NCBI GenBank assembly: GCA_937969495.1
Contig: CALBVY010000039.1
Span: 9,374-73,373 of the forward strand
Reading direction: 5' to 3'
Length of the DNA stretch: 64,000 bases
Source of the DNA: an uncultured Verrucomicrobiales bacterium
GTDB taxonomy: Bacteria; Verrucomicrobiota; Verrucomicrobiia; Verrucomicrobiales; Akkermansiaceae
Of this stretch, positions 5,393 through 55,644 are shown in pieces (position 1 is the stretch's first letter; every line of letters starts with the position of its first letter). The notes beneath the pieces are model-generated. The model ran no database searches. It was not told the origin of the DNA and saw only the letters and a program-made list of their open reading frames with translations. The position numbers and the translations under genes were made by a program.

Positions 5393-5398
5393 GTGCAC

Positions 5399-6469: not shown

Positions 6470-6479
6470 CGCGCTTCCT

Positions 6480-9536: not shown

Positions 9537-9583
9537 GTTTTCTGACTCGCTCCCAGTGATGAAAGGTGCAAAATAAATGGTTT

Positions 9584-9601
9584 TGGCAACGGACCTTGCC
9601 A
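9584..9601. promoter_or_regulatory. Palindrome TGGCAA-N6-TTGCCA, candidate operator upstream of the XRE-IrrE gene
   Basis: Perfect 6-bp inverted arms 31 nt upstream of the ATG at 9633. Confidence 0.3.
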
Positions 9602-9632
9602 GCTATGCTAGTATTTAGAAAATCATTAAGTA

Positions 9633-10781: not shown

Positions 10782-11317
10782 TGCCTTATCTCTTGGACAC
10801 AAACACTCTGATTCAAGCGAAGAACGAATATTACGCTTTTGATCTTTGCCCAGGGTTCTGGCACTGGATTGAACAAGAAAATCAGAGGGGCGAAGTCGTT
10901 AGCATAGAACCCGTTCTCACTGAGATCCGAGACGGGCAAGATGAACTTACTGATTGGGCGAACCAACATGCCCAAGAGCTTTTTCTACCCATAGATCAAG
11001 CAACTACCGCAGCTCTCACAACCGTGGTCAATTGGGTCCATGCTGGAGACTTCAAAGAAGAAGCGAAACGCGACTTTCTAGCTAAAGCTGACCCTATCCT
11101 CATTGCGTATGCGATGTCGCACCCAGGCACGATTCTAGCGACTCACGAGGTTCATATCGAAGGGGAGCGCAAGAAGGTGAAGATCCCGACAGTCTGCAAA
11201 GCTCTCGAAGTGCCCTGTGTCCGAACATTCCAAATGCTCAAGGCACAGAATGCTCAGTTTGTTCTCAAGACCGGACATCATTTAGCGCCCAAAGAGTTAA
11301 TAATGAATCAATCATGA
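10781..11317 (+). CDS. DUF4411 family PIN-like nuclease domain protein
   Basis: YLLDTN, ADPILIA, THE, KIPTVC motifs. Start overlaps the stop of the XRE-IrrE gene (TGATG); this gene pair is a known arrangement. Confidence 0.85.
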   Translation: MPYLLDTNTLIQAKNEYYAFDLCPGFWHWIEQENQRGEVVSIEPVLTEIRDGQDELTDWANQHAQELFLPIDQATTAALTTVVNWVHAGDFKEEAKRDFLAKADPILIAYAMSHPGTILATHEVHIEGERKKVKIPTVCKALEVPCVRTFQMLKAQNAQFVLKTGHHLAPKELIMNQS

Positions 11318-11364
11318 AATTCGCCAGACACTGTCTGGCCAATCTTACCCAAAACTTTCCCGCC

Positions 11365-12744
11365 ATGAAACTCACCGCCTCTGCCCTCACCATCGCGCTC
11401 CTCCTCAGTGGCTGCGCCACCGACCCCAATGCCGTCAACCAGCAAGCCTCTGAAGAGGGGTTAGCTGCCTTGCCAAATACTCCCATCACTTGGGCGCAGG
11501 CTAAACAGCGAGCTGGAAACGTCCGAGTCGGCTGGATCAGCTCTTTCCGTGATGGCACTCTCACGAAGTTAGTCCGCGAAGCTCAGTCCAATAATCCAGA
11601 CCTCCGAGCCGCCGCAGCCAAGGTGCAGAGTTCTCAAGCTCTCGCTCGTCAAGCGGGCGCAGCACTCTCTCCTCAGCTCAATGCCACTGGCGGAGGATCT
11701 CGCTCTGGTTCAGGCGTCGGTAGCTCAAGAGGGAACCTCAATCTCGGACTGCAAGCCAGTTGGGAACTCGATCTCTGGGGACGAATCCGTTCAGGCCGCA
11801 ATGCTTCCGTTAATAACGCGGAAGCTGCCGCTGCCGAATATCGCTACACCCAACACTCACTCGCCGCCAGTGTTGCCCGAGCCTACTTCCTCGCCATCGA
11901 CGCCCAGAGACAAGAGGCCCTCGCGCAACAAACCCTCGCATCTCTTTCCAAAAACCAACGCATCGTTGCCGCTCGTCGCGCCGTTGGTGAATCTGACCGC
12001 TATGATATCTCACTCATCAACTCAGATGTCGCCAGTGCCAAGGCCAGCCTCGTCGCTGCGAAAGGAAGTAAACGAGACGCCCTCCGCGCCCTTGAACTAC
12101 TGCTCGGTCGTTACCCCGGTGCAGACATTCAAGTCCGCAAGAGCCTTCCTCCCGTGCCATCGCCACCGCCTGCCGGAGTGCCTTCACAGCTTCTTGAGCG
12201 TCGCCCAGATCTCATCGCTGCCGAGCGCCGCATCGCCGCCGCAATCAATAACGTGAACAAATCCAAAGCCGCGCGCCTGCCACAGATTTCCCTTACCGCC
12301 TCCGGTGGAGCATCGTCTAATGCCCTCAACTCACTCACTAACCCCGGAAATCTCGCCTGGCAAGCCACCTCTAGTCTCCTCGTCCCCATCGCCGATGGCG
12401 GAGCCCGCAAGGCTCAGGTCGAAGTCGACAAAGCCAACCAAAAAGCCGCCGTTTCCTCCTACGCCAGTGCCGCCCTCAAAGCCTTTGGCGATGTCGAAAA
12501 ATCCCTCGACCAAGGCACCGTCATTCGCCAGCGCCGCAGCCTCATCACCCAGTCCCTCACCGATGCCAAAAGCGCCCTCGACGTCGCCGAGAAAAACTAC
12601 AAAGCCGGAGAAACCGACCTCTTCCAAGTCCTCCAACTCCGCCAAAAAGTGAACAGCCTCGAAGCCAGCAAGATCACACTGGAACGTGCGCAGTTAGATC
12701 AGATTGTGGGCCTGAATTTAGCGTTGGGTGGGAGCTGGAAATAA
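11365..12744 (+). CDS. Efflux outer-membrane factor lipoprotein (NodT/OprM/TolC family)
   Basis: Lipobox LLSGC, SWELDLWGR, PSQLLERRPDLIAAERR, LNLALGGSW. ATG 11365 preferred over 11314. Confidence 0.93.
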   Translation: MKLTASALTIALLLSGCATDPNAVNQQASEEGLAALPNTPITWAQAKQRAGNVRVGWISSFRDGTLTKLVREAQSNNPDLRAAAAKVQSSQALARQAGAALSPQLNATGGGSRSGSGVGSSRGNLNLGLQASWELDLWGRIRSGRNASVNNAEAAAAEYRYTQHSLAASVARAYFLAIDAQRQEALAQQTLASLSKNQRIVAARRAVGESDRYDISLINSDVASAKASLVAAKGSKRDALRALELLLGRYPGADIQVRKSLPPVPSPPPAGVPSQLLERRPDLIAAERRIAAAINNVNKSKAARLPQISLTASGGASSNALNSLTNPGNLAWQATSSLLVPIADGGARKAQVEVDKANQKAAVSSYASAALKAFGDVEKSLDQGTVIRQRRSLITQSLTDAKSALDVAEKNYKAGETDLFQVLQLRQKVNSLEASKITLERAQLDQIVGLNLALGGSWK

Positions 12745-12754
12745 ATTAAATCAC

Positions 12755-14971
12755 ATGAAACCCAGAGGGAGAAAACTGTCGAACGATGCTCCCAAGGGAA
12801 GCCATAGAGACGACACATATGGGCGTAAGGATTTTGCCCGACAAATTGCCACTGAAATAAGAGCTTGGGATGGCAAGGATTCCTTAACTGTTGGTCTTTC
12901 AGGCCCTTGGGGATCAGGTAAAACGACTCTAAAAAACTTCGTTTGTGAGGCCATTAACTATCGTCGAATAAGCAGGAAAATCAGAATTCTGGATTTTAAT
13001 CCATGGCAATTTTCCGGTAGGCGGACAGTTACCGAAGCATTTTTCGGCGAGCTAGAAACTCTTTTCAGTGAGGAAAAAGTGATTGAAAAGGCTCAGATTC
13101 GAGCTCTCTCCTCGCGTCTGACAGCTAGTGCGACTTTTGGCAAAGGCTTTGCCAAGTTGATGCAATTAGCTGCTCTTCCTGCTGCGGCTATCGATCCCGA
13201 TGCAGCAGCTACTTTGGCAGCGATTGGGGGAGCATCGGAAAAAACTGCCGAGGCTATCGAAGGTGCTGCCGATGTAGCCAAAGTAGATGATGCGAATACC
13301 AATTTGAGTCTGTCAGACCTTAAAAAGAAAATTGCCTCAAATCTCGCTGACTTAAATGATCCTGTGCTGATTGTCATTGATGATATCGACCGACTCACGG
13401 AGGAAGAAATTCGAGAGGTATTCCAGCTTGTCCGCATCAATGCTGATTTCCCCAATCTCGTCTACCTACTTTTATTTGATAGAGATGTTGTTTCCAGTGC
13501 CCTCAACCCAATATCCGGGGGACGAGGGGATGAATTTTTAGAAAAAATTACTCCCATAATCTACGAGGTTCCCAAGGCACGAGAAAAAGTTTTGCTTCAG
13601 CAACTTTCAGATGAGGTCAACAAACTCTTAGGGGAACTTGGTTGCGACAATGCCTGGCTCAATAGTCGATTTCATGAGCTGTGGAATAGTGGAGTAAGAA
13701 CTTACTTTCAAAACCCGAGGGACGTTAACCGTTTTATGAACGGCCTTTCCTCTTTTTGGACACTGATGACTGAAGATTCCATTCCTGAGTTGGATCTAGT
13801 CGAGATGTTTGTGTTAGAAGCGATCCGTCTTTTCGACCGAGAATTCTACGCATCACTTCATGCCTGCGAAGAGCTGCTCACAACAGGCCGCACTTCGCGA
13901 TTTTATTTATCAAAGGAAGAAGCAACAGATGCGGAGGATAGGCAAATTCAAGAAATTGCAAATAAATCGAAAATTGGTGACAAGCGCCTAGCTCTTAATT
14001 TGATCGAGCACTTATTTCCGGCGACAGGCAAACATGCAGGAGGGCACAACGATGTATGGTTAGAGGAACGTAGAGTTGGACATAAAGCATTTTTCAATCG
14101 GTATTTCAGTAGAAATATTAGTAACGAGGAGGTCAGGGCGACAGACATTACCAGTTTGATCATGTGCCTAAAAAAAGGAGAAAGCATTTCTACTGCTATT
14201 CCGAAATGGGATCAGCGAGGCATATCCAATGACTTGTTGCGAGAGCTACTCGTTCATATTGATTCATTTTCTCAAGATGAACTCAGAGTCGCGCTGAATA
14301 CTCTATCGTTAGATTGTGATCTCTTCACTATCCGTGATCGAAAAGAAGCCTTCGGAGAGATCGGGATTACTTATCTTGTAGGCTCAATCATCTCTAAGAT
14401 TTTTAGAAAACTTCCAGAAAACTCAAGAGAAGATATCCTTCTGAAGGCCCTAGAAAATTCATCAGGATTCTCACTACCTTTGGAGCTCTTTTGGAAAGAG
14501 AGCGAGCACATTCCGGCCTATGAAGCTTCCGAAGGCTTTCGGGAAAAGATTCGCAGCATCGCCCGAAACAAAATTCGAGCATGCGCTAGCAAAGGTTTTC
14601 CTGAGAACCATGATCTAGGTCCGATTATGTTGGGCTGGAAAATGCTGGAAGGAGGCGACCCTTCAAATCCTCGCGAATGGCTATCAACTCAATTAGTCGA
14701 TTCAGAAAAGGCTCTCAAAGTCCTCAAATGCTTTATCGGCATTTGCCACATTGGGACAAATCACCGAAGTAAAAGACGCTATTCAGTTTATGGAGGAGCA
14801 GATGAACTGTTAGATTTTGAACGGGTGAATGAACTAACCAAGGGCATCAAGCTTGATGACATTGATGCTGATGATGATAGGCGTGCTATTAGAGCCCTAC
14901 GATATCACTTCGAGCAAGGTAACGAGCGCTCCTTCCGCGATGAAAATGATCCGCTGACCGAGAATGTCTAG
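12755..14971 (+). CDS. KAP family P-loop NTPase with uncharacterised C-terminal region
   Basis: D.YGR..FA, Walker A GPWGSGKT, FNPW, Walker B VIDDIDRL, FLEK, NPR..NR. Confidence 0.9.
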   Translation: MKPRGRKLSNDAPKGSHRDDTYGRKDFARQIATEIRAWDGKDSLTVGLSGPWGSGKTTLKNFVCEAINYRRISRKIRILDFNPWQFSGRRTVTEAFFGELETLFSEEKVIEKAQIRALSSRLTASATFGKGFAKLMQLAALPAAAIDPDAAATLAAIGGASEKTAEAIEGAADVAKVDDANTNLSLSDLKKKIASNLADLNDPVLIVIDDIDRLTEEEIREVFQLVRINADFPNLVYLLLFDRDVVSSALNPISGGRGDEFLEKITPIIYEVPKAREKVLLQQLSDEVNKLLGELGCDNAWLNSRFHELWNSGVRTYFQNPRDVNRFMNGLSSFWTLMTEDSIPELDLVEMFVLEAIRLFDREFYASLHACEELLTTGRTSRFYLSKEEATDAEDRQIQEIANKSKIGDKRLALNLIEHLFPATGKHAGGHNDVWLEERRVGHKAFFNRYFSRNISNEEVRATDITSLIMCLKKGESISTAIPKWDQRGISNDLLRELLVHIDSFSQDELRVALNTLSLDCDLFTIRDRKEAFGEIGITYLVGSIISKIFRKLPENSREDILLKALENSSGFSLPLELFWKESEHIPAYEASEGFREKIRSIARNKIRACASKGFPENHDLGPIMLGWKMLEGGDPSNPREWLSTQLVDSEKALKVLKCFIGICHIGTNHRSKRRYSVYGGADELLDFERVNELTKGIKLDDIDADDDRRAIRALRYHFEQGNERSFRDENDPLTENV

Positions 14972-33780: not shown

Positions 33781-35027
33781 CAGGGTCATCCAGCTAGGGA
33801 GAGGAGATGGTTCCTGTAATCATCATCGGCCATTGCCTTCATCTGCTTCATGGGTAAAGATTTGTTAATGGTTTTATCCAATTTCAGTATGTTCTGAGCT
33901 AGTCGTCTCAACACGGCAAAATTGCGGGCTGCGTTTTTCACCCTCACTTGTGAATGGTCTTCGCGATACAGAGTGTCTAAAACCCAGTGGCAACCATTTT
34001 CAATACTCCAGTGCTGCCGTACCAAGCTTTGAAAAGTTTCAGCGCACCCATCCAAGCTGCTGATATAGAATCTCTTCTGCTTGCTGGTTTTCATGCTACT
34101 TAAACAGTAAGTCTCGGATTCGATCATGATCAGGCATTGAAGCCCGTTCCATTTTTTGCGAACCGAGCGTGACATCCAGTCAAGCTCGTTAGTGACAGCT
34201 ACTCGCCGTGTACAAACTCGACCATTGGCTTTTTCTGTTTGCTCACAAAGGCTCCAAGCCTTGCTTTTTTCCTGGGCCACCTGCGTGGTTGCAAAATGAA
34301 ACTGGTCAATAGCCTCATTGTGCAATGTCCCTTGATTGCGCTTGAGAGCCATAAGGTAGTCAGCTCCCTTGTCCTTCACTTTTTTTGCGATTGCTGTCTG
34401 GGTACCCATGGCATCCACGGAAATGACATGACCTTTGATCTCTAGCTGCTCAAGAAGAAGTGGAATGGCTGGGATCTCATTACTTTTTTTCTGCACAAAT
34501 TCCACAGCAAGTGTCACTCCTGTGTCAGCAGCCCAGGCACTCAGGCAATGCTCCTGTTCCGAACTGGACTTCCCACTACCTCTGATCGTTTTGCCATCGA
34601 TAGCTATGAGTTGTTTTGCTAACTCAGGGTGAAGATCCCTGATGTGTTCAACCACGCATTTGCTGAACTGCTGGGGATCCATGAGGGAAAACAGGTTAAT
34701 GAGAGTCTGCTTAACCGGGATACCATTGGGCAATTTGATCCATTTTTTTAACCACCGTTCATGAACATGGGCAAACTCAACAATCCCTGAAAAGGATTGA
34801 ACCCCGCAGACCAACGCGCTGACAGCAATAAACAAAATCTCCCCAAAGTAGTGTTTTTTGTTCCCTCCGAGACGAGGATCTTCGATGACGATGAATCGTT
34901 CAAAACCATTGGGTAAACCTCCCGAGTAGTCATTTTTATTTGGATTTCTGGGCATCCAGAAATTATAAGGCGCCTAACAAAAAGTACAACTCTAAATTGT
35001 CAATATTTCCCTAGCTGGATGACCCTG
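33781..35027 (-). mobile_element. ISAs1 family insertion sequence, 1247 bp
   Basis: Perfect 20-bp terminal IRs CAGGGTCATCCAGCTAGGGA (33781-33800) and its complement (35008-35027); 10-bp TSD GTAGCCATTT at 33771-33780 and 35028-35037. Confidence 0.95.
33786..34955 (-). CDS. ISAs1 family DDE transposase
   Basis: EDPR, IAIDGKT, KSNEI.A, VDAMGTQ, LKRNQ, RQHWSIEN..HWVLD..YRED; stop codon lies inside the IR. Confidence 0.96.
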   Translation of the reverse strand: MPRNPNKNDYSGGLPNGFERFIVIEDPRLGGNKKHYFGEILFIAVSALVCGVQSFSGIVEFAHVHERWLKKWIKLPNGIPVKQTLINLFSLMDPQQFSKCVVEHIRDLHPELAKQLIAIDGKTIRGSGKSSSEQEHCLSAWAADTGVTLAVEFVQKKSNEIPAIPLLLEQLEIKGHVISVDAMGTQTAIAKKVKDKGADYLMALKRNQGTLHNEAIDQFHFATTQVAQEKSKAWSLCEQTEKANGRVCTRRVAVTNELDWMSRSVRKKWNGLQCLIMIESETYCLSSMKTSKQKRFYISSLDGCAETFQSLVRQHWSIENGCHWVLDTLYREDHSQVRVKNAARNFAVLRRLAQNILKLDKTINKSLPMKQMKAMADDDYRNHLLSLAG

Positions 35028-39332: not shown

Positions 39333-40502
39333 TTATCTTTGATAAATTGGAAGAATCTTCATGCAAGGTGTAAGAGCTATGATTGCTAGAGAAGTGGAGT
39401 AAGCTGCCCCATATGGTGCAGCAGAACCTCTTCTGGGCCATATCCCTGTGGGATCTTGCAAAGGTAAAAGATAATTATAGCACTCTTTCATACCTGTTAC
39501 CCAGAGTTGACCGCCCATCTGGATAGAAGCCTGTGTTACATAATAACAGGTATAATACGGGTAATATCTTCTGCAGTGCGAAAGAAAAGCATTGATATTC
39601 CTTGCTGAGAATTTACTCAAATAAGCAGACGATTTTAACAAAGCTGGGTGTTTATGTTTCCCTGCAAGGGCAACACATAACGTGCCTGCCGCTGTCATAA
39701 TAAAGGAGCTCCGATCATCACTAGAAATGTAGCGAAAGCCTCCTTGAGGCGTCTGATTTCGTAATACGAAGTTTGCAATACGGTCCATTACTTTTTCAGG
39801 GACATCAAATCCAGCGTTGCGAATAGAGCGTAGTGAAGCAGCATGCCAACCTGTCACCGATACATCTCCCTCAGCTCTATCTCTCCAAGGTCGGGTGTAG
39901 CGGAAGCCTCCGTCATCTTTTGCTTCTCCTTTCCTAATGTCCCAGAGCTGGAGTGTACACTTTAGCCCTTTTTCAATACCTTGTTTAATCCGAAAAGCAC
40001 GTTGAGGCTCAGTTAATCCATAAACCTCACCGAGCATTAGCATGCAGATGGCATGACAGTATGTCTTGGCTCCTCCACCGTTAACATATAAGTCACCTCC
40101 TCTGGGTATCATGTTAATCTCTGGATAATTAAGCTCTTGCGCAGCGAATAGTCCACTTTTTTGCTGAATGGATAACACGTAATTCAATGCCCTATCAAGT
40201 TGCTTGCCATAGGGGCCTTCGCCAGGGCGGTGCCCCCGCGATAGATATGCCATAATAGCAAGGGAGGTAATAGCTGGCTTGCCGTGTCTTTGCGTTTGAA
40301 AACTACCATTTGCCTCTTGCAGTCGCGCAAGAGCCTTCAAGCCTCTGTCCACGCTATCGGTTAGTTTTTTCATCTCAGTATCAGTCAGCGCCTGAGGAAG
40401 TGGAGCAGAAGGGTCAATAAGCGAGATTTCACCTTTGGGCACCTGTCCAAAACAACACCCCAATGAGCATATAAATACAATAATGTAAGAAATAAAATTC
40501 AT
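39333..40502 (-). CDS. Prenyltransferase/squalene-oxidase-repeat (alpha/alpha barrel) secreted protein, paralog 3
   Basis: Signal peptide, LQEANGSF/QTPQGGF QW-like repeats, DGGFRY, GDVSVTGW, C-terminal LPIYQR. Confidence 0.85.
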   Translation of the reverse strand: MNFISYIIVFICSLGCCFGQVPKGEISLIDPSAPLPQALTDTEMKKLTDSVDRGLKALARLQEANGSFQTQRHGKPAITSLAIMAYLSRGHRPGEGPYGKQLDRALNYVLSIQQKSGLFAAQELNYPEINMIPRGGDLYVNGGGAKTYCHAICMLMLGEVYGLTEPQRAFRIKQGIEKGLKCTLQLWDIRKGEAKDDGGFRYTRPWRDRAEGDVSVTGWHAASLRSIRNAGFDVPEKVMDRIANFVLRNQTPQGGFRYISSDDRSSFIMTAAGTLCVALAGKHKHPALLKSSAYLSKFSARNINAFLSHCRRYYPYYTCYYVTQASIQMGGQLWVTGMKECYNYLLPLQDPTGIWPRRGSAAPYGAAYSTSLAIIALTPCMKILPIYQR

Positions 40503-40547
40503 AGATCTATTTAATGACGATTTAATCATTTATTGTTAGATAATTCA

Positions 40548-41741
40548 CTACCTTTGATAAATTGGAAGAAGTTGTAAAGGAGGCGTGAGAGAAAGAATAG
40601 CCATTGAGGTAGAATAGACTTTCCCAAATCTAGTAGTATGCCCTAGCGGCTTCCAGAAGCCAGATTGCATCTGCTTAGGCAAAAGATAACTATAACAATT
40701 TTTCATAGATTTTCTCCAGAGACGCCCACCCAGCTGCATGCTTATCTGTGTCATATAATAGCATGTGTAGTAGGGATAATATCTATTGTATTGATTAGTA
40801 AAAAACTTGGCGCTCGTTATATCAAATCTATTAAGAAACTGGCTAGATTTCTTTAGTGCTGGATGATCGTGTTTCCCTGTTAAGGTCAGACATAGAGAGC
40901 CCGCAGCGGTCATGGTAAAAGTGCTACGATATCCTGGATGAGGTAAATACCCAAAACCTCCATCAGCGTTTTGATTTCTAATAGCAAAACCTGCTAATCT
41001 ATTGGTCACTCCTTCTGGCACCTCAAAACCAGCATTAGCAATAGACCGCAAGGAAGCTGCAAACCATGAAGTCACGGAAAAATCAGATTCACCACGTATT
41101 TGTAGACTACCTTTATAAGGGCGAAAATACCGAAAGCCACCATCATCTTTAACTGATTTTTTTCTAACATTCCAAAGCTTCAGTGTGCACACCAGACCTT
41201 TCTCAATGGCTTTACGAATGCGGAACGAATTTTTAGGATCAGAAACTCCATACACTTCTCCCAACATGAGCATACATATAGGGTGGCAATACGACTTAGC
41301 GACACCTCCCACAGAATAAAGCTCCGTCAGAGATCGCCCAGTTAAGTCCGTCTCGATGAGAGCATAGTTAAAATCTTCATTAGCAAATAATCCGCTTCTT
41401 TTTTGAATAGATAGAATGTGGTTCACAGCCTTATCCAGTAGCTTCCCATAAGGGCCTTGACCTGGTTTATGTCCCCTCGAAAGAAAAGCCATGATCGCCA
41501 TGGAAGTTACCGCAGGCTTGGAATATTCAGGGTTTGCAAAACTGCCATCTGCCAATTGCAGCGTCGCAAGAGCTTTAAGTCCTCTATCTACACTAGCCGT
41601 TAGTTTTTTAATCTCTGCATCATTAAGAGCCCTAGGAAGTGGTGCAGAAGGGTCAATAAGGGGGGGGTCACCTTTGGGAATTTCTCCAAGACAACATCCT
41701 AATGAGCAGATTAATAAAATAATATGATAGATAGATTTCAT
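40548..41741 (-). CDS. Prenyltransferase/squalene-oxidase-repeat secreted protein, paralog 2
   Basis: LQLADGSF, DGGFRY, SDFSVTSW, QNADGGFGY, LPIYQR. Confidence 0.85.
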   Translation of the reverse strand: MKSIYHIILLICSLGCCLGEIPKGDPPLIDPSAPLPRALNDAEIKKLTASVDRGLKALATLQLADGSFANPEYSKPAVTSMAIMAFLSRGHKPGQGPYGKLLDKAVNHILSIQKRSGLFANEDFNYALIETDLTGRSLTELYSVGGVAKSYCHPICMLMLGEVYGVSDPKNSFRIRKAIEKGLVCTLKLWNVRKKSVKDDGGFRYFRPYKGSLQIRGESDFSVTSWFAASLRSIANAGFEVPEGVTNRLAGFAIRNQNADGGFGYLPHPGYRSTFTMTAAGSLCLTLTGKHDHPALKKSSQFLNRFDITSAKFFTNQYNRYYPYYTCYYMTQISMQLGGRLWRKSMKNCYSYLLPKQMQSGFWKPLGHTTRFGKVYSTSMAILSLTPPLQLLPIYQR

Positions 41742-41755
41742 TCCCAGGGTACTTC

Positions 41756-42922
41756 TCATCTTTGGTAAATTGGCAGGATTTGCATGGATGGAGTTAAGGC
41801 AATAATAGCCAAAGATGTGGAGTAAGCCTGCCCATAACGTGCTGAACGCTCAAAGGCCGGCCAATGACCAGAGGCCAATTGTTTTGGCAAAAGATAGTTA
41901 TAACACTCCTTCATACATTTTACCCACAAAGCTCCACCCATCTGAATAGCTGCTTGAGTCACATAATAACACGAATAGTAAGCATAGATTGTATGCCCTC
42001 CAGTTGCTTTAAAACACAGTGGTGAAGCAGCATTAAACCGATACAAATAGCGACATGCCCGCTCAAGTGAGGAATGATCATGTCTTGCTGCTAGTCCTAT
42101 GCAAAGAGTTCCCGCAGCGGTCATCACAAATGAACTTTGTCCACGAACCAAGTAACTGAAACCTCCGTCAGGGCATTGCGTCTTGACAACGTAAGCCACA
42201 ATACGGTTCATGACATTTTCTGGCACATCAAATCCAGCATTACGAATAGAACGTAGTGAGCTTACATGCCACGCTGTAACTGATAAATCAGAATCATTAC
42301 TCCCATGAAGACGGGTGTAACGAAACCCTCCATCGTTCATTGACGATTTTTTTCTAATATCCCAGAGCTCTAAGGTGAACTTAAGTCCCTTGGTGATCGC
42401 CGCTTTAACGCGGAATGTATGCTTAGGATCAGTTAAGCCATAGACCTCTCCAAGCATAAGCATACAAATGGCATGGTTATAGGTCTTGGCAGTACCGCCT
42501 GCACCACGCACGTCCGCCTCACGTATAGGAACATTAATTAAAGCAGTATTAATTTCCTGACTCGCAAAAAGTCCGCTTTTCTTTTGGGTTGTAAGCACGT
42601 AGTCCAATGCTTTATCGATCTGCTTGCCATAAGGACCTTCGCCAGGGCGGTGACCACGCGATAAATATGCCATAATCGCAAACGAAGTAATAGCTGGCTT
42701 CCCGTGATTTAGAGTGGGAAAACTACCATCTGCTAGTTGCAATTTAGAAAGTGCCCGTAGCCCTCTATCTACGCTGGTAGTTAGCTTTTGCATCTCCGCA
42801 CTAGTTAGAGCCTGAGGGAGTGGTCCGGAAGGATCCATCAGCGGAAGCTTATCTGTTGGAGCCTGTCCTAGGCAGTATCCCGATGAATAGGTTAATAAAA
42901 TAATGTAAACAAAAGTTTTCAT
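41756..42922 (-). CDS. Prenyltransferase/squalene-oxidase-repeat secreted protein, paralog 1
   Basis: LQLADGSF, DGGFRY, SDLSVTAW, QCPDGGFSY, LPIYQR; ATGA overlap with the upstream gene. Confidence 0.85.
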   Translation of the reverse strand: MKTFVYIILLTYSSGYCLGQAPTDKLPLMDPSGPLPQALTSAEMQKLTTSVDRGLRALSKLQLADGSFPTLNHGKPAITSFAIMAYLSRGHRPGEGPYGKQIDKALDYVLTTQKKSGLFASQEINTALINVPIREADVRGAGGTAKTYNHAICMLMLGEVYGLTDPKHTFRVKAAITKGLKFTLELWDIRKKSSMNDGGFRYTRLHGSNDSDLSVTAWHVSSLRSIRNAGFDVPENVMNRIVAYVVKTQCPDGGFSYLVRGQSSFVMTAAGTLCIGLAARHDHSSLERACRYLYRFNAASPLCFKATGGHTIYAYYSCYYVTQAAIQMGGALWVKCMKECYNYLLPKQLASGHWPAFERSARYGQAYSTSLAIIALTPSMQILPIYQR

Positions 42923-45900
42923 TTGTTTTTCTCATTATTGTTATTTTCCTCAGCTATTTCGCGGAAATACTGTTCTATAGCCTCTCGATATGCCTCTGGA
43001 ATATCTGAGTCAACATCTTGACTCAAACTTTGCCTCAGCTCACTTGAGAGCTTGTTCCAACTTTCACCTCCTTCAAAAAGCTTAGTTCCACGGTTTTTCC
43101 ATGGAACGGCGATTTTTTTATAAAGAGCTTCAGACATAGCATTACGATTCTTATTAGCTTTTTGCTGAGCTTTAGCTGCATTACGTTGAGCATTTTTAGC
43201 TTGTTGCTGCTGCTCTTTTTTAGCTTGTTGCATCTCCCGACGCTTCTTTTCTATTTCCTTTTTCTCTTTTTTCTCTTTTTTTGTAGCCTTCTCCCAGTCA
43301 GTTTTCACCTTAAGATTAAAGGTTGGTTTTATACCTAGTTCCATCTTCGCTTCTCTTGGCTGTCTGGCTTCTTTTTCTAGTCTAGCAAGAGTATCTTGCA
43401 GCGCTTGTAACATATCTTCCTCGTTGAGAGTTTTTGCTGGGGCAGGAGGCTCTTCAGGGTCCGGCTCCTTGTTCTTTTCTTTGACAAATTCAACAATAGC
43501 CATATCTAACAATTTAACACCTTTCTCTATTAACTCTGCGGCTTTTTCCTGATGAGGAATGGCATTCTTAGCCCAAGGAGCTAAGTTATGTGTTAATATA
43601 TTTTTTTGAGTTTCGAGAAGATCTTTTTCCATAATCTGGCTAAGCTTATTAATCGTTTCATCTATTTTTACTGACACACCACTCAATCTAGCAAGTTCAG
43701 AAGAAAGCCTTAAAACAGTATTGGCTGTCTCAGAATTAATCTCCTTCTGCAGCTGCATCACAAATGCCTGGTAGTCTTTTTTATCCAGACAACCTAACAA
43801 ATAACGATTGGATTTTATTGATAAATCCATTGCTGTGAGGTCTGAGATCCTTATATCAACATACTCTCCATCTAAACGTTTAATATCTACATCCGCTAGA
43901 ATAGCCTCCGCTCGTTGATGGGCATGATTTAGTTTTATGAAATAACTTTTGAGCTCACTGATTTTTTCCGTTGGAGTCTCGGCCAAGCTCGTTGCTATGT
44001 TAGATAGACCGGAGAATGCTTTTGTTAATTTTTGACACTGTTCTACAGAAGCCTTTTGAGGGATCCAAATCTGGGCATTCCCCATGGCATTGGTTGTTTG
44101 ATTAGAGAATTCCATCAGACGTTCTTTCAAAATATCTGACAGCTTCTGCATCGGAAACTCTTCAACAGCTAACTCCTTATTGATATCAACAAGTAACAAC
44201 TGTCGATTCCGAAGCTTAGAAAGTACTTCTCGGAAAATACCGCCACCTGTTGGATTGAGCCTGGTGAGCATTTTTGAACGTAGGTCAGGTCGCTCTTGTA
44301 AGAGTTCGCTCAATCTCTTGAGAAGCTCTCTTTTAAATTTTATTTTGGCAATCTCATCTTTTATTTCTTGATCTGACAACTCAGCACGGAGTGTCGGGTA
44401 GGGGCTACCTGGTCATCCGCCTCATGTAGAACCTGGCATATCTTCGACGGTAACGGTATGCATCTTTTTGAACTGATGAGCCAAATTTTCAATTTCTTCC
44501 ATCTCGATGATGGATTCAAACTGTGATTCTGTTTCCTCCAATAGCTTGATTACCCATCTGAGCCGTTCATCAACAGCATCAAGCTTGACCATAATAAAAT
44601 CAGGATCAGGTTTTTTCAGAGCTTCTTTCATTGCCATCACAGCGGGTGCAAAGCCGTTTTCTACTATACCCTTAGCTTGTATCCCAAAGAATGAGTAGGG
44701 AGTGCCCTCGCTGATTTTTCTAAGATTCTCAGCGCTTTCCGCTCCTTTCTCAAGAATCTGAATTAACTCTGGGGAGAGATTACGAGAAGTATTCTGCAAG
44801 CTTTGACCTACTCTCTCTATTTGTTTATCTTTTACTAAATCATCAAAGCGGATCAAAGCAACAAGACGACGACCTTCTTGTGCGTTTTCCCGGATCCCTT
44901 CGATAACATGCTTAATCGCAATCTGTTTTTTCTTTTGTCCGTCACCTGCAACAAGATGACTTTCGTATTCATCTACAGTTACTTTCGCCGATTTACTTTG
45001 AGCTGATTCACTTTCAAGATCTAGTTTACGTTTTGCTATCTGCTCCTCTTTAGCTCGGTTCTGATTCTTATCACGGTTTTCTTTTTGTGCTTTAGCGATA
45101 GTATCAATTGCCTTATCGATTTCTTCTTCAACCTGTTTGAGCTTGGACTCCGAGTTACCAGATTCTGCAGCCTCTCCAATCAGTTCCTGAATTTTCGCAA
45201 TTGATTTTTTGACGTCGTTTTTTAAATCTTCCGAATCAATTTCTTGAGCCATCTCTTGAAGCTCGTCCACTTGTTTAGAAAGATTTTGTAAGTTGTTGGT
45301 CTGGTTCTGATCCTGCTGTCCTTGCTGACCCTGTTGACCCTGTTGACCCTGTTGACCCTGTTGACCCTGTTGACCGTCGATACCTTGGCGTATTGAATTA
45401 GCCTCTTGTTTTACAGCAGATAAGCCTGACCGCAGTTTGTTTAAATTCTCTGCTTGAGCCAGTTCCCTCTGAGCTTTTTGGAGTGCTCTTTGTGCTTCTT
45501 GATTTAGATTATGAAGTGCTTGTTCTGCTTTTTGAATATTACCTTCAGCTTCTTTCAAGTCTTCTTTAGATACATCCGGAGATTTTCCACCCCCAAGGCT
45601 TTTCTGGGCTTTACTGATTTCACTCTTTATAGCTTGCAGCTGATTTTTAGCTCCTTCATCCAAAGAACTTGCGGACTTTTTAGCTTCACTTAACTGCTGG
45701 CGTGTTTTTGCTGTCGCTGCGGCCGCTGATTGATTTTGTTTGCCGCTTTGTTGAGAAGTCTGCCCTTGCTTCTGATTTTCACCTGACTGTTTAGCCTTCA
45801 TCGCTTTCTTGTTAGAAGCGTTGGCGCTAGCCAATTGATTTTTTAATTCTCCTAGTTTAGCTATCTTCTCTTGCAGTTTTTCCTCTTGTTTTCTGAGTTC

Positions 45901-47820
45901 CTGATATTCAAGGTCGTCTTGCTTAGATTCATTCTTAGCAATTTCGTTCTCCAGCTCACGTCGCATTTTAGTCAAAGCTTCACGTGCCTTAGCAATTTCA
46001 GCCTGGCTCGATTGAAGATCCTTCATAGGATTTTTGTCAGTCTTTGCGTCCTCCAATTTTTGGTTAGCCTTAGAGATAGAAGACTTCAGATTTTTCAATT
46101 CCTCACTATTGATATCTTTCAGCTGATCTGCTCTCTGCTTTGCTTTGCTAACATGGTCTTGAGTTTTCTGAGCTAACTGCTTCTTGTTTGATTGATCATC
46201 TGGCTCCACATTTGCCTTCAAGGCCTGAGAGTTTGCTTCTTTAGCTTTTCTAAGTTCATCGTCTAGCTGATTCATTTGGCTTAAAATTTGTTTAAGCGCA
46301 TCATTTTCTTTTTCCAGTTCATCAACTAGAAATTGATTAGATTTCTCAAATGAAGCTAACCCTTTTGAGTCTTCTACTTCGACCAAATAATTAAGCTGAG
46401 AATTTTCTGTAATAGGTAATTTACTAAGATCAAGAGTAACAGAACTTTCTATTTTCTTTGAACCCTTTTGGTCTTTAAGATCTATGGGAAAATAAAACTT
46501 TTCTTTCTCCCCCTCTGCATTTGTTACCTCTGCAACTAGACGAGCCGCTTCCACCCCATAGTCATCCTTTGCTTGAAACTTAACCTCAAGCAATTCATCT
46601 GCTTTCATAACAAAAGTTTCTGTATCTTTTAGAAGGTTTACCTTAGGAGCTTTATCGGCAATAGCAACTAAGCTTATTTTCATTTGAGATTTCAAATTAC
46701 CTATTTTTGAAGTCATTTTAAAATCAGCATGAACTGTATTGATAACATTGACTTTATGGGTGTAGGTCTTTGCTGAACTTTCAGTCAGTATCTCTTGAGT
46801 AACTTTACCCCCTGTATTGGTATCAAAGGTTGCCTGAAGAACTTCTTGGTCAACTTCGATCTCGAAATCAACCACACTGCCTTGAGGTATTTTGATCTTA
46901 CGTGGAAGCTTACTCAGGATCCAAGGTTTCAGTTTAGTATATGCTGGAGGTGTAATGGTAATTTTCCCACTGACGATAGCAGGCTTATCAATCATAGTAA
47001 CCTGCTTCCAAGCTGACTGAGTATCACCAGCAATAACACGATAAGAGAAGTCTGCTACCCTATTTAATATCTTGTGAGAAAGGCTCCCAGTAGCTTGATC
47101 GATGTCAATCAAACGCTCTTCGATCAACCCGCTCGTAGAGCGTTCTTGGACTTTTACTTGATCCGGTATTTTCCCAGAAACGGTAACCTCAATTGAGTAA
47201 TCTTTTCCTCTTGGATGAATCACCTCACCTTCTTTCTGAGAAATTATCGTTAGAGTATTATTATTCCATGGACTTAACAGCCTATCCAATAATTTAGGGA
47301 AAGCAGATCCCATCATAAAAGCAAAACCGCATAATAAAATAATAGAACCAACAAAAGTAAAAGAAGCTTGTTTAAATGACCGGCTTTTAATTAATTTACT
47401 ACTTCCACTTTTTATTTCTAAATGATTGACCTGATCTCCTACGGCTTGAAGTAAATTTGTCGAACAATTTTCTGCGCCCTCTAATTCTACTGAAGTCACT
47501 AAACGTTCCTCGAGATCGGGGTTTACTTCATCTAGCCATTTTGCTGTTTCTTCCTGACTAGATTCGAACTTCATTTTTCCCCAGACCCATCGAAAAGAAA
47601 CAATGAGTACTACTAATACAACTAAACTAAGTATAACCCGTGACCATAAAGATTTTAACTCAAAATTCCAGTCAATATACATCGCTAGTATAACTGGTAA
47701 AACAATGGCACTAGCAATACCTAAAAAGAGATAGATTGTCCGAATTAGCCTACGCTCACGTTTTTCAGCCGAGAGAGCTTTCAGAGTTTCTTCAGATAAA
47801 TGATTGTTATTTTGTGTCAT
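42919..47820 (-). CDS. Giant membrane-anchored coiled-coil protein (DUF4175-like architecture), probably one 1633-aa selenoprotein with U-G-G-U at 1133-1136; otherwise two ORFs 44422-47820 and 42919-44379
   Basis: Both track ORFs share a frame. The linker reads ...DMPGST-TGA-GGC-GGA-TGA-PGSPYPTLRAELSDQE. Three N-terminal TM segments, Ig-like beta region, long coiled coils, C-terminal W..L...LR..L.Q..IPEAYREAIEQYF motif. SECIS-like hairpin downstream of the TGAs. Confidence 0.7.
44375..44395 (-). promoter_or_regulatory. Candidate bacterial SECIS element
   Basis: GACA-CUC[CGUGCU]GAG-U-UGUC: 7-bp stem, bulged U, 6-nt loop with G at position 2; loop starts 24 and 33 nt after the two UGAs. Confidence 0.55.
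45313..45375 (-). repeat. 9-bp tandem repeat encoding (GQQ)7
   Basis: Five perfect GGTCAACAG units (45331-45375) plus two synonymous variants. Confidence 0.95.
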
Positions 47821-54964: not shown

Positions 54965-55019
54965 TGTGGATATTTCCACACATTCAAACCAAGTCAACTT
55001 AAATGTGGTTTTTTTCACA
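54965..55019. promoter_or_regulatory. Twin dyads TGTGG-N6-CCACA (54965-54980) and TGTGG-N6-TCACA (55004-55019), CRP/FNR-like geometry
   Basis: Two related palindromes 39 bp apart in the divergent intergenic region. Confidence 0.45.
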
Positions 55020-55065: not shown

Positions 55066-55644
55066 ATGAGACTTCTCTATATTACCCTAGCCCTTGTTCT
55101 TGCGCAGCCAGTTTTAGCGCAGCGAAATCGTGTTGATAATGCGCCTAAAGTGGGTGAACCGATTCCCCAGGTATCCGCCGTGGCAATGAAAGGTCATCAA
55201 AAAGTGGATCTTTCCAAGCCTGATAAAGTGACGGTTCTTATCTTTGGGTCTCATACCTGAGGGCCATTCATGCGGCAGACCGGGCGTCTGCAGAAAATGT
55301 ATGAAACTTATGGTGAAAAGGCTGATTTTTGGTGGATCTACATTCAAGAGGCGCATGCTACGGATGGCCGCCGGCCTAGCAAAAAAGTTAAAATTGCTCT
55401 GCATAAAACGTTAGAAGACCGGAAAAAAGCTGCTGCTGGGTGTAGCGAAGCTTCTCGTTTAAAGGTGCCTGTGCTTCTTGATGATATGCAGGATACAGTT
55501 TCCAATGCCTACTCAGCGCGCCCTGAGAGGTTTTTTATTCTCGGTGCAGATGGTAAGGTGGCTTACTCAGGAGCGCGCGGCCCCAGAGGCATTAATCTTG
55601 ATGCCCTAGAGAAGCGGTTAAGTGAACTTACCACCAAGGAGTAA
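55066..55644 (+). CDS. Secreted iodothyronine-deiodinase-like (thioredoxin-fold) selenoprotein, 192 aa, Sec65
   Basis: Track ORFs 55066-55260 and 55270-55644 are in frame: VLIFGSHT-TGA-GPFM, then YIQEAHATDG. This matches the deiodinase FGS.TUPPF and YI.EAH..DG motifs. Signal peptide present; SECIS-like hairpin downstream. Confidence 0.88.
55275..55291 (+). promoter_or_regulatory. Candidate bacterial SECIS element
   Basis: GCAGAC[CGGGC]GUCUGC perfect 6-bp stem; loop begins 20 nt after the UGA and has G at position 2. Confidence 0.65.

What the first reader, a model, noticed from the sequence alone, without database searches (positions are those of the whole stretch)
55066..55644. Secreted deiodinase-like selenoprotein split by the ORF caller
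Seen: signal peptide, then LIFGSHT-TGA-GPFMRQ and YIQEAHATDG in one frame, with hairpin GCAGAC[CGGGC]GUCUGC starting its loop 20 nt after the UGA. Established: animal iodothyronine deiodinases use FGS.TU.PF and YI.EAH..DG; bacterial homologs exist but their substrates are largely unknown. Inference: the host decodes Sec, which independently supports the UGGU reading in the neighbouring operon. The enzyme may be an extracytoplasmic reductive dehalogenase or peroxidase-like redox protein.
Basis: partly seen in the sequence, partly recalled or inferred. Interest (0 to 1): 0.8.

Follow-up and report, generated by a model that had tools for sequence, protein, structure and literature searches.

The report
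Exported deiodinase-family selenoprotein gene, mis-split
This is a real single gene for a small exported selenium-containing enzyme related to animal thyroid-hormone deiodinases; gene callers cut it in two at its selenocysteine codon, the family has been known in marine bacteria since 2005, and its substrate is still unknown.

Summary
Window 55066..55644 (+) is one 192-codon frame with a single in-frame TGA at 55258-55260. The read-through product matches Pfam T4_deiodinase across the TGA (E 9.8e-33) and solved mouse Dio3 and Dio2 (E 4e-20, 4e-16), with the TGA at the catalytic Sec.

- **Conservation:** the same TGA occurs in 27 other distinct loci (Verrucomicrobiota, Planctomycetota and others). 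Both flanks are under coding selection in one frame.
- **Cys forms:** 44 of 152 homologue clusters carry Cys at that position. 88 begin just after it, as expected if they are split there too.
- **Hairpin:** a 6-bp stem with loop CGGGC puts its loop 20 nt after the UGA. It shows modest covariation and is much commoner in Sec forms than in Cys forms.
- **Genetic code:** TGA is an ordinary stop elsewhere in the window.
- **Second case:** a DUF4175 gene in the window carries TGA-GGC-GGA-TGA where homologues have Cys.

The Sec reading is therefore well supported, although no sel genes or tRNA-Sec lie in the window and the whole genome could not be searched. The product has a cleavable-type signal peptide and keeps the deiodinase proton-relay residues plus a candidate resolving Cys.

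This is a new member of a known bacterial selenoprotein family. Its substrate (halogenated phenolic, peroxide or disulfide) is untested.

The parts
55066..55644 (+). Complete selenoprotein gene: 192 sense codons including one UGA (Sec65), ending in TAA. Public gene calls split it into a 64-aa and a 124-aa ORF.
   Evidence: In one search, all 51 close homologues are 118-144 aa C-terminal fragments. In some searches, each orthologue locus has a 58-104 aa ORF called that ends 9 nt before the called deiodinase ORF.
55066..55119 (+). Signal peptide, codons 1-18 (MRLLYITLALVLAQPVLA). The predicted cleavage is after Ala18, before QRNR.
   Evidence: Read directly from the sequence. The same n/h/c layout and A-x-A|Q-R motif appear in 15 orthologues. 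No signal-peptide predictor was available.
55243..55269 (+). Active-site motif F60-G-S62-H-T64-U65-G-P-F68.
   Evidence: It aligns to FGSCT(U)PPF of mouse Dio3 and FGSAT(U)PPF of Dio2. The Sec/Cys column is invariant in alignment A2.
55258..55260 (+). UGA read as selenocysteine (Sec65).
   Evidence: It is conserved in 27 other distinct loci. Cys occupies this position in 44 homologue clusters. TGA is a normal stop for 8 of 42 long ORFs in the window.
55275..55291 (+). Candidate bacterial SECIS hairpin: stem 55275-55280 with 55286-55291, loop CGGGC at 55281-55285.
   Evidence: Covariation is: A-U to G-C at 55279/55287, and G-C to C-G at 55275/55291 in L020.
55339..55356 (+). Y92-I-Q-E95-A-H97, the deiodinase 'YI.EAH' motif (proton-relay residues Tyr, Glu, His).
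   Evidence: Alignment to Dio3 and Dio2. Residue roles are taken from PMC11592359. Y, E, A and H are invariant in A2.
55402..55404 (+). His113, equivalent to Dio2 His182 (second His of the proton relay).
   Evidence: It is conserved in the Verrucomicrobial clade but replaced by Pro in many other bacterial homologues.
55441..55443 (+). Cys126, the candidate resolving cysteine.
   Evidence: It is present in 21 of 26 sequences of A2. It is not the position of the Cys in Dio3's ...APGCALVLD stretch, which aligns with Val133. The residue number and resolving role of that Dio3 Cys come from my own knowledge. The resolving role proposed for Cys126 is inference.
55576..55578 (+). Arg171, equivalent to Dio3 Arg275 (proposed substrate clamp).
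   Evidence: Alignment GARGP to GGRGP. The role is taken from PMC11592359. The residue varies in other bacterial clades.

Best explanation
Window 55066..55644 is one gene of a marine Verrucomicrobiota bacterium (closest relatives are Akkermansiaceae MAGs). It encodes a 192-residue precursor of an exported thioredoxin-fold selenoprotein of the iodothyronine-deiodinase family.

**Shown**
- The frame is continuous apart from one UGA.
- The UGA sits at the catalytic Sec/Cys position of the family.
- The UGA is conserved across many genomes, with coding selection on both sides.
- A small G-containing hairpin lies just downstream of the UGA.
- TGA is otherwise a stop codon in this window.

**Inferred**
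- During translation, SelB with Sec-tRNA(Sec) binds the hairpin at 55275-55291 and inserts selenocysteine at codon 65.
- The precursor is exported through the Sec translocon and cleaved after Ala18, giving a periplasmic or secreted enzyme of about 19 kDa.
- The Sec65 selenolate is activated by the conserved Ser62/Thr64/Tyr92/Glu95/His97/His113 network. It attacks an electrophilic atom of a small substrate.
- My first choice of substrate is a halogen on a phenolic ring, as in deiodinases. Otherwise it is a peroxide oxygen.
- The resulting Se-X or Se-OH intermediate is resolved by Cys126 to a selenenyl-sulfide.
- That bond is then re-reduced by an extracytoplasmic thiol relay.

The gene stands alone. 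Its neighbours differ from genome to genome.
For: - **Family:** Pfam T4_deiodinase E 9.8e-33 across residues 18-185. PDB Dio3 4TR3 E 4.2e-20 and Dio2 9H48 E 4.1e-16, with the catalytic position aligned to the TGA.
- **TGA conservation:** it is conserved in L001-L011, L020-L027 and L031-L042, with FGSHT-U-GPFMR or FGSYT-U-PPFR on either side.
- **Coding selection:** the codon-position substitution pattern is the same on both sides of the TGA.
- **Cluster representatives (152):** 88 start just after the Sec codon and 44 span it with Cys.
- **Hairpin:** 90% of cells paired, 2 of 6 pairs compensatory, no shuffle reaching the covariation score. Stems of 6 bp or more occur in 16/27 Sec loci against 6/48 Cys loci, Mann-Whitney p = 3e-4.
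- **Genetic code:** TGA ends 8 of 42 long ORFs, including Pfam-complete ones.
- **Second recoded gene:** a second gene in the window also has in-frame TGA, at 44413-44424, where homologues carry Cys.
- **Catalytic residues:** the proton-relay residues named for Dio2/Dio3 (PMC11592359) are all present.
- **Export:** the signal-peptide layout is conserved in orthologues.
- **Literature:** the family was described as bacterial selenoproteins with Cys homologues (PMC1088965; PMC13188914).
Against: - No selA, selB, selD or tRNA-Sec lies in the 64 kb, and the rest of the genome could not be searched.
- The hairpin's folding energy alone is weak evidence (p = 0.025 in the window; combined p about 0.01 over non-independent loci).
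- One orthologue sub-clade (L002, L008, L033, L035, L040, L042) has a U-U mismatch in the stem.
- Part of the hairpin sequence is constrained by the conserved peptide Q-(T/A)-G-R-L.
- Export, the role of Cys126, the reductant and the substrate are all inferred. No bacterial member of the family has been characterised in the literature I could search.
- His113 and Arg171 are not conserved across all bacterial homologues, so arguments from them apply to this clade only.
Confidence: 0.85

Rival explanations
1. Same selenoprotein, but its job is peroxide reduction. It would be a peroxiredoxin/GPx-like selenol peroxidase protecting the envelope, not a dehalogenase.
For: - The Pfam Redoxin (31.8 bits) and AhpC-TSA (25.2 bits) models also match.
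- Deiodinases are described as peroxiredoxin-like in fold and mechanism (titles and abstracts; PMC11592359).
- The 2005 authors suggested a generic redox role, because thyroid hormones are not expected in bacteria.
- A conserved Cys126 fits a two-cysteine-type peroxidatic cycle.
Against: - The match to T4_deiodinase is far stronger than to any peroxiredoxin model, and AhpC-TSA is below its cut-off.
- The deiodinase-specific insertion and the Tyr/Glu/His/His relay are retained.
- None of this excludes peroxidase activity.
Confidence: 0.3
2. Same selenoprotein, but it acts as an extracytoplasmic thiol-disulfide oxidoreductase (TlpA/ResA-like) that reduces protein disulfides or sulfenic acids. 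It would not act on a small molecule.
For: - It has a thioredoxin fold and a weak Thioredoxin_8 match.
- It has a signal peptide.
- Many predicted bacterial selenoproteins are exported thiol-disulfide oxidoreductase-like proteins (tables).
Against: - There is no CxxC/UxxC motif: the sequence is U-G-P-F.
- The active site follows the deiodinase pattern rather than the TlpA pattern.
- No neighbourhood link to cytochrome maturation or Dsb genes is conserved.
Confidence: 0.12
3. The TGA is a true stop, so two separate products are made: a 64-aa exported peptide, and a 124-aa protein started at ATG 55270 behind the GAGGG that overlaps the TGA.
For: - Gene callers make exactly this call everywhere.
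- A Shine-Dalgarno-like GAGGG lies 9-13 nt before ATG 55270.
Against: - The split would cut the thioredoxin fold and remove the active site.
- One Pfam alignment crosses the TGA.
- In other clades the residues after the TGA are PPFR with no nearby start codon, yet the TGA and both flanks are conserved.
- Cys forms are continuous at this point.
Confidence: 0.03
4. The UGA is decoded, but not as Sec. It could be read by a reassigned genetic code (UGA = Trp or Gly) or by near-cognate read-through inserting Trp or Cys.
For: - Two database homologues show W at this position (P0100, P0126). That may reflect translation of TGA with an alternative code table.
- Sec machinery was not found in the window.
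Against: - TGA terminates 8 of 42 long ORFs in the window, including Pfam-complete proteins.
- The position is Cys in homologues and Sec in animal enzymes.
- A hairpin enriched in Sec forms follows the codon.
Confidence: 0.03
5. It is a pseudogene or a sequencing or assembly error.
For: One orthologue (Roseibacillus persicicus, L008) carries a +1 frameshift further downstream.
Against: - The same TGA is present in 27 independent loci from different assemblies and phyla.
- Both flanks are under purifying selection.
Confidence: 0.01

Closest known systems
Bacterial 'deiodinase-like protein' selenoprotein family (Zhang, Fomenko & Gladyshev 2005, Sargasso Sea; PMC1088965; listed in reviews PMC9312934 and PMC13188914)
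   Same: - It is a Pfam PF00837 protein from marine bacteria.
- It has an in-frame UGA at the catalytic position, followed by a small hairpin with a G in the loop.
- Sec and Cys forms coexist.
- The function is uncharacterised.
   Different: - The reviews give the motif of their representative as UxxC. Here it is U-G-P-F with no Cys at +3, which is closer to the animal T-U-P-P-F.
- This clade is Verrucomicrobial and has a signal peptide and a shorter insertion loop.
- I could not compare directly with the 2005 sequences.
Vertebrate iodothyronine deiodinases Dio1-3 (structures 4TR3/4TR4 Dio3, 9H48 Dio2)
   Same: - The catalytic domain is homologous (E 4e-20 and 4e-16), with Sec at the same position.
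- It shares FGS.TU.PF and YI.EAH..DG.
- The Ser/Thr/Tyr/Glu/His/His relay and the Arg275 equivalent are conserved.
- The insertion between the two His residues is of similar length: 15 residues here, 16 in Dio3.
   Different: - Sec insertion is signalled by a hairpin inside the coding region next to the UGA, not by a 3'-UTR SECIS.
- It has a cleavable-type signal peptide instead of an N-terminal membrane anchor.
- The Trp that follows the YI.EAH..DG motif in Dio3 and Dio2 (named Dio3 Trp207 / Dio2 Trp167) is Arg here.
- The Cys in Dio3's ...APGCALVLD stretch aligns with Val133 here. From my own knowledge, that Cys is the proposed resolving Cys239. A different Cys (Cys126) is conserved instead.
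- There is no thyroid hormone in the organism's biology.
NCBIfam NF038285 'deiodinase family protein' (deiodinase_rel, 347 positions)
   Same: The C-terminal half of that model (positions 174-340) aligns with residues 25-185 here, E 7.5e-40.
   Different: - The score of 137 bits is below the 250-bit cut-off, and the N-terminal ~170 positions of the model are absent.
- Long Cys-form homologues with EF-hand-like N-terminal extensions (for example P0108, P0116, P0176) may correspond to that model, but they were not scanned against it.
Peroxiredoxin / Redoxin / AhpC-TSA thioredoxin-fold peroxidases
   Same: It shares the thioredoxin fold, a nucleophilic (seleno)cysteine at the start of helix 1, and a possible resolving Cys. 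The Redoxin model is just above its cut-off (31.8 against 26.6 bits).
   Different: The match is much weaker than to T4_deiodinase, and AhpC-TSA is below its cut-off (25.2 against 26). The deiodinase insertion and His/Glu relay are present instead.

Membership tests
Pfam PF00837 T4_deiodinase | Whole-protein score at or above the gathering score (27 bits) | tested here: met
   113.9 bits, E 9.8e-33, residues 18-185 on profile 64-233/237. All 51 close homologues carry precomputed PF00837.
Iodothyronine deiodinase family (catalytic domain) | Sec or Cys in FGS.T[UC].PF at the N-terminus of helix 1 | tested here: met
   FGSHT-UGA-GPF aligns to FGSCT(C)PPF of 4TR3 and FGSAT(C)PPF of 9H48. From my own knowledge, those chains carry Cys in place of Sec.
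Iodothyronine deiodinase family (catalytic domain) | Deiodinase-specific insertion flanked by YI.EAH and a second His; Ser/Thr/Tyr/Glu/His/His hydrogen-bond relay | tested here: met
   S62, T64, Y92, E95, H97 and H113 align to Dio2 S127, T129, Y157, E160, H162 and H182 (roles from PMC11592359). H113 is clade-specific among bacteria.
Iodothyronine deiodinase family (animal enzymes) | N-terminal transmembrane anchor and 3'-UTR eukaryotic SECIS | tested here: not met
   The N-terminus has a 14-residue hydrophobic core with Pro and V-L-A|Q, which is signal-peptide-like and too short for a membrane span. The Rfam scan of the window found no SECIS family. The recoding signal candidate lies inside the ORF.
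Iodothyronine deiodinase family | Reductive deiodination activity | not testable with these tools
   It needs an enzyme assay. No bacterial member was found characterised in the searchable literature.
Bacterial selenoprotein (general criteria) | In-frame UGA conserved among orthologues, with conserved flanks and Cys in homologues | tested here: met
   27 other distinct loci carry the TGA. The codon-position pattern is coding on both sides. 44 clusters have Cys at the position.
Bacterial selenoprotein (general criteria) | Bacterial SECIS: a stem-loop immediately downstream of the UGA with a small apical loop containing G (PMC1088965). The numeric window of 16-37 nt comes from my own knowledge of bSECISearch. 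| tested here: met
   - The stem is 6 bp, the loop is CGGGC, and there are 20 nt between the UGA and the loop.
- Covariation is seen in 2 of 6 pairs.
- The hairpin is enriched in Sec forms over Cys forms.
- Caveats: energy alone is weak, and one sub-clade has a mismatch.
Bacterial selenoprotein (general criteria) | Genome encodes tRNA-Sec, SelA, SelB and SelD | not testable with these tools
   None is in the window or in the fetched flanks. Whole genomes cannot be searched by organism here. Indirect support comes from a second gene in the window with TGA at a Cys-homologous site.
Bacterial deiodinase-like selenoprotein as tabulated in reviews | UxxC redox motif | tested here: not met
   The motif here is U-G-P-F. 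The reviews list UxxC for their representative. This points to a different sub-family.
NCBIfam NF038285 deiodinase_rel | Score at or above 250 bits over the 347-position model | tested here: not met
   137.4 bits, covering model positions 174-340 only.
Peroxiredoxin (AhpC-TSA, PF00578) | Score at or above the gathering score (26 bits) | tested here: not met
   25.2 bits, and the match lies under the much stronger T4_deiodinase match.

The most novel reading that the evidence does not exclude
The protein is an extracytoplasmic, selenium-dependent reductive dehalogenase. Marine Verrucomicrobia living on algal material would use it to strip iodine or bromine from halogenated phenolics such as iodotyrosines or bromophenols. 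This would be a bacterial counterpart, and possibly the evolutionary source, of animal thyroid-hormone deiodination, and an unrecognised step in marine iodine cycling.
Probability: 0.2. Interest if true: 0.75.

Novelty: new member of a known kind. Interest (0 to 1): 0.35.

Why it matters
- **Annotation:** the gene is consistently mis-annotated. All 51 close homologues in the protein collection, and 88 of the 152 nearest cluster representatives, are stored as ~125-aa fragments that lack the active site. NCBI names some of them 'deiodinase-like protein'. Annotators of Verrucomicrobiota and Planctomycetota genomes should merge the two ORFs and mark Sec.
- **Sec decoding:** together with the DUF4175 'UGGU' gene, this shows the lineage very probably decodes Sec.
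- **Biochemistry:** the clade keeps the full set of residues assigned to deiodinase catalysis, and a cultured relative, Oceaniferula spumae NT6N, carries the gene. That gives a tractable way to ask what the ancestral, non-hormonal substrate of deiodinase-type enzymes is.

Tried and rejected
- **Structure prediction of the read-through protein:** The same happened for the exhaustive representative search with the read-through, so the 124-aa fragment was used instead. Fold comparison was therefore replaced by sequence comparison with PDB chains.
- **Rfam at gathering thresholds:** it found only the tRNA-Cys gene.
- **Sec machinery:**
  - ARAGORN on the window and on 19 loci found no tRNA-Sec.
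  - Pfam scans of 40 window ORFs found no SelA, SelB or SelD. The five ORFs at 28.9-33.7 kb and 22.0-22.5 kb were not scanned.
  - An attempt to extend beyond the window through an edge gene found no record.
I rejected them because results cannot be restricted to the relevant genomes.
- **Synteny:** neighbours of the orthologues differ in every genome (RtcA/RtcB, PDDEXK nuclease, PDZ/DUF6288 plus sulfatase, EF-Ts/S2, T2SS genes). There is no operon-based functional clue, and the adjacency to the MoxR operon is incidental.
- **Promoter and terminator scan:** not above the shuffle expectation.
- **Metagenome scan:** it returned only distant relatives. They were useful for TGA conservation but not for covariation within the clade.
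- **Folding energy as a stand-alone test of the hairpin:** too weak, so it was replaced by covariation and a Sec-versus-Cys control.
Full report
**What is in the sequence**

Window 55066..55644 (+) is one reading frame. It starts at ATG 55066, has 192 sense codons and ends at TAA 55642-55644. Its only internal stop is TGA at 55258-55260. A mechanical ORF list splits it into a 64-aa ORF (55066..55260) and a 124-aa ORF (55270..55644) in the same frame.

The product reads MRLLYITLALVLAQPVLAQRNR...VTVLIFGSHT-U-GPFMRQTGRLQKMYETYGEKADFWWIYIQEAHATDGRR.... The hairpin GCAGAC-CGGGC-GUCUGC occupies 55275-55291, with 20 nt between the UGA and the first loop base.

**Which family it belongs to**

With the UGA written as Cys, the protein matches Pfam T4_deiodinase at E 9.8e-33 (113.9 bits against a gathering score of 27). 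The single alignment covers residues 18-185 and so crosses the TGA. Redoxin and AhpC-TSA match far more weakly.

Among all PDB chains, the only matches are mouse Dio3 (4TR3/4TR4, E 4.2e-20) and Dio2 (9H48, E 4.1e-16). Their FGSCT-C-PPF and FGSAT-C-PPF align on FGSHT-U-GPF, and YIEEAHPSDG and YIDEAHPSDG align on YIQEAHATDG.

NCBIfam's deiodinase_rel model matches only with its C-terminal half and stays below its cut-off, 137 against 250 bits.

**Is the TGA decoded?**

Five lines of evidence agree.

1. All 51 close homologues in the 5.8-billion protein collection are 118-144 aa and cover only the part after the TGA. The split is therefore systematic.
2. I read the DNA of related loci.
   - The same in-frame TGA sits at the same codon in 11 genome loci. 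These include Akkermansiaceae and Verrucomicrobiaceae MAGs, Oceaniferula spumae NT6N, Roseibacillus persicicus and Planctomycetota/Pirellulaceae.
   - It is also present in 8 metagenome contigs and 8 further distinct contigs.
   - Protein sequence is conserved on both sides: FGSHT-U-GPFMR in Verrucomicrobiota and FGSYT-U-PPFR elsewhere.
   - Among 15 orthologues, substitutions upstream of the TGA fall at codon positions 1/2/3 at 0.22/0.125/0.63 per codon. Downstream the values are 0.18/0.13/0.55. Both halves are therefore under coding selection in one frame.
3. An exhaustive profile-free search found 1761 relatives. Of the 152 nearest cluster representatives:
   - 88 begin right after the Sec codon;
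   - 44 span it with Cys (FGSYTCPPFR, FGNFTCGPFR);
   - 2 have W;
   - 3 have other residues;
   - 15 are fragments.
4. TGA is the ordinary stop of 8 of 42 long ORFs in the window, including Pfam-complete proteins. The genetic code is therefore not reassigned.
5. A second gene in the window shows the same phenomenon (see 'The neighbouring UGGU').

**The hairpin**

Folding energy alone is weak evidence. It gives p = 0.025 against other 36-nt windows of the same source, and a combined p of about 0.01 over 20 non-independent loci.

Covariation adds support. In 17 distinct sequences that share the register, 90% of cells pair. Two of six pairs change on both sides:
- A-U to G-C at 55279/55287. This couples a Thr/Ala codon change to a synonymous CGU/CGC change.
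- G-C to C-G at the outer pair, in L020.

No shuffle reaches the covariation score, and all slid registers collapse.

As a control I fetched 48 Cys-form loci from Planctomycetota, Opitutia and Acidobacteriota. A perfect stem of 6 bp or more, with its loop 14-30 nt after the codon, occurs in 6 of 48 Cys loci and in 16 of 27 Sec loci (Mann-Whitney p = 3e-4). Sec-form loops are G-rich: CGGGC, GGUC, GGC, GGU. Sequences within each class are related, so these p-values overstate independence.

More distant Sec forms have different hairpins in a shifted register. This is expected for bacterial SECIS elements.

One sub-clade (L002, L008, L033, L035, L040, L042) has a U-U mismatch in the stem. I cannot explain this.

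**Sec machinery**

The window has no tRNA-Sec and no Rfam match other than tRNA-Cys. The 40 ORFs I scanned include no SelA, SelB or SelD. The fetched flanks have none either. Whole genomes cannot be queried by organism with these tools, so this defining feature remains untested. The literature shows complete Sec-insertion gene sets in alga-associated Planctomycetes (PMC4807772). That is only background for the PVC group.

**The neighbouring 'UGGU'**

On the minus strand, the 1132-aa DUF4175 ORF (44422..47820) ends in TGA GGC GGA TGA (44413-44424). It runs in frame into the 486-aa ORF 42919..44379.
- **Continuous homologues** read through this point with Cys. These are ...EDS-C-PTSPY in a Chthoniobacter flavus MAG (L043) and ...PPSA-C-D-C-RLGPY in P0202.
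- **Split homologues** read PGST-U-GG-U-AGSPY (L044), PPPGGT-U-CGSPY (L045) and PPGGG-U-GSSPY (L046).

This is a second probable selenoprotein gene in the same contig, inside the MoxR/DUF58/BatA-VWA operon. It supports Sec decoding in this organism independently. No NCBIfam model covers it. The 2026 review does not mention DUF4175, MoxR or aerotolerance.

**Anatomy and likely mechanism**

*Export.* The N-terminus has a basic start, a 14-residue hydrophobic core with Pro at -4, and V-L-A before Gln. Orthologues keep this layout with A-x-A|Q-R. I read this as a signal peptidase I signal peptide. Many Cys forms also carry signal peptides, often with EF-hand-like extensions.

*Catalytic residues.* The residues that PMC11592359 assigns to the deiodinase proton relay (Dio2 S127, T129, Y157, E160, H162, H182) correspond to S62, T64, Y92, E95, H97 and H113 here. 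Dio3 Arg275 corresponds to R171.

*Conservation across bacteria.* In a 26-sequence alignment of Sec and Cys forms:
- U/C65, Y92, E95, A96, H97, R119, P135, P153, R155 and G163 are invariant.
- H113 and R171 are kept in this clade but not in all bacterial homologues.
- The insertion loop is 11 columns shorter in this clade than in most of the other bacterial homologues aligned.
- Cys126 is present in 21 of 26 sequences.

The Cys in Dio3's ...APGCALVLD stretch aligns with Val133 here. From my own knowledge, that residue is the proposed resolving Cys239 of Dio3.

*Proposed cycle (inference).* The Sec65 selenolate attacks a halogen of a phenolic substrate or a peroxide oxygen. The Se-X or Se-OH intermediate is resolved by Cys126 to a Se-S bond. 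That bond is reduced by an extracytoplasmic thiol relay.

*Substrate.* I rank reductive dehalogenation first, because the clade keeps the deiodinase-specific residues and the source is a marine metagenome. Peroxidase activity is nearly as likely. A thiol-disulfide oxidoreductase role is less likely because there is no UxxC motif.

*Context.* Neighbourhood gives no help, because the gene's neighbours differ in every genome. Here it lies between the divergently transcribed MoxR operon and a convergent Gfo/Idh/MocA oxidoreductase.

**Comparison with what is known**

Bacterial deiodinase-like selenoproteins, with Cys homologues and bacterial-type SECIS elements, were reported from the Sargasso Sea in 2005. 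Their function was left as 'possibly redox' (PMC1088965). They are listed in the 2022 and 2026 reviews with a UxxC motif. I found no experimental characterisation of a bacterial member.

The present gene is a new member of that kind. It differs in several ways:
- It belongs to a Verrucomicrobial sub-family.
- Its motif is T-U-G-P-F, closer to the animal T-U-P-P-F.
- It has a signal peptide.
- It has the animal-like second His.

**Verdict**

Novelty is low, and the main practical value is for annotation. The open question is the substrate. The more novel item in the window is the DUF4175 UGGU gene.

Noticed in passing
window 42919-47820 (- strand), recoding site 44413-44424: The 1132-aa DUF4175 ORF and the following 486-aa ORF appear to be one gene of about 1620 codons, joined by TGA GGC GGA TGA ('ST-U-GG-U-PG'). 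Continuous homologues have Cys here (L043: EDS-C-PTSPY; P0202: SA-C-D-C-RLGPY). Split homologues have U-GG-U, U-C or a single U (L044-L046). A hairpin GGUAG-CCC-CUACC follows the second UGA. The gene lies in a MoxR/DUF58/BatA-VWA operon. No NCBIfam model matches it, and a term search of the 2026 selenoproteome review found no mention of DUF4175, MoxR or aerotolerance. It may be a new selenoprotein family.
   Followed up: partly
window 54965-54980 and 55004-55019: These are the only two TGTG-N8-CACA palindromes in the 64-kb window (TGTGGATATTTCCACA and TGTGGTTTTTTTCACA). They lie 39 bp apart, in the 448-bp region between the deiodinase-like gene and the divergent MoxR operon. They have a CRP/FNR-like operator shape. 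The first is also a 9-bp perfect inverted repeat that the scan flagged as terminator-like. Neither is present upstream of the orthologues.
   Followed up: partly
L008 (Roseibacillus persicicus KCTC 12988, NZ_BMXI01000002.1), about 190 nt after the TGA at 3989: This isolate's orthologue has a +1 frameshift after ...AAEGCS. The rest of the protein (LKVPVLLDDMND...) continues in another frame. This is either a pseudogene or an assembly error.
   Followed up: partly
L002, L008, L033, L035, L040, L042 (hairpin region 17-34 nt after the TGA): In this orthologue sub-clade, Gln (CAG) is replaced by Leu or Met (CUG/AUG). This puts a U-U mismatch (plus an A-G mismatch in L040) in the middle of the candidate SECIS stem. 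Either the element tolerates an internal mismatch or a different structure is used.
   Followed up: no
proteins P0100 and P0126: Two database homologues have Trp exactly at the Sec/Cys position (FGSITWGPF, FASFTWLPF). This would be expected if a gene caller translated TGA with an alternative code table. The DNA was not checked.
   Followed up: no
window 5393-14971 (+ strand): An RND efflux set is interrupted between the pump and the outer-membrane gene. The set is HlyD-type adaptor 5393-6469, AcrB-type pump 6480-9536 and outer-membrane factor 11314-12744. The interruption is an HTH/ImmA-IrrE M78 peptidase gene (9633-10781) and a DUF4411 gene (10781-11317). A KAP-family NTPase (12728-14971) follows. 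The inserted genes look like a mobile or defence-type module.
   Followed up: no
window 39333-42922 (- strand); also L044 and L045 downstream of the DUF4175 gene: Three consecutive ~390-400 aa proteins give weak matches to the prenyltransferase / squalene-hopene-cyclase alpha-alpha toroid domain. They close the MoxR/BatA/DUF4175 operon. The same kind of gene follows the DUF4175 gene in two related contigs, so the linkage is conserved.
   Followed up: no
window 33786-34955 (- strand): A DDE transposase (DDE_Tnp_1 plus DDE_Tnp_1_assoc) is present, indicating an insertion sequence in the contig.
   Followed up: no
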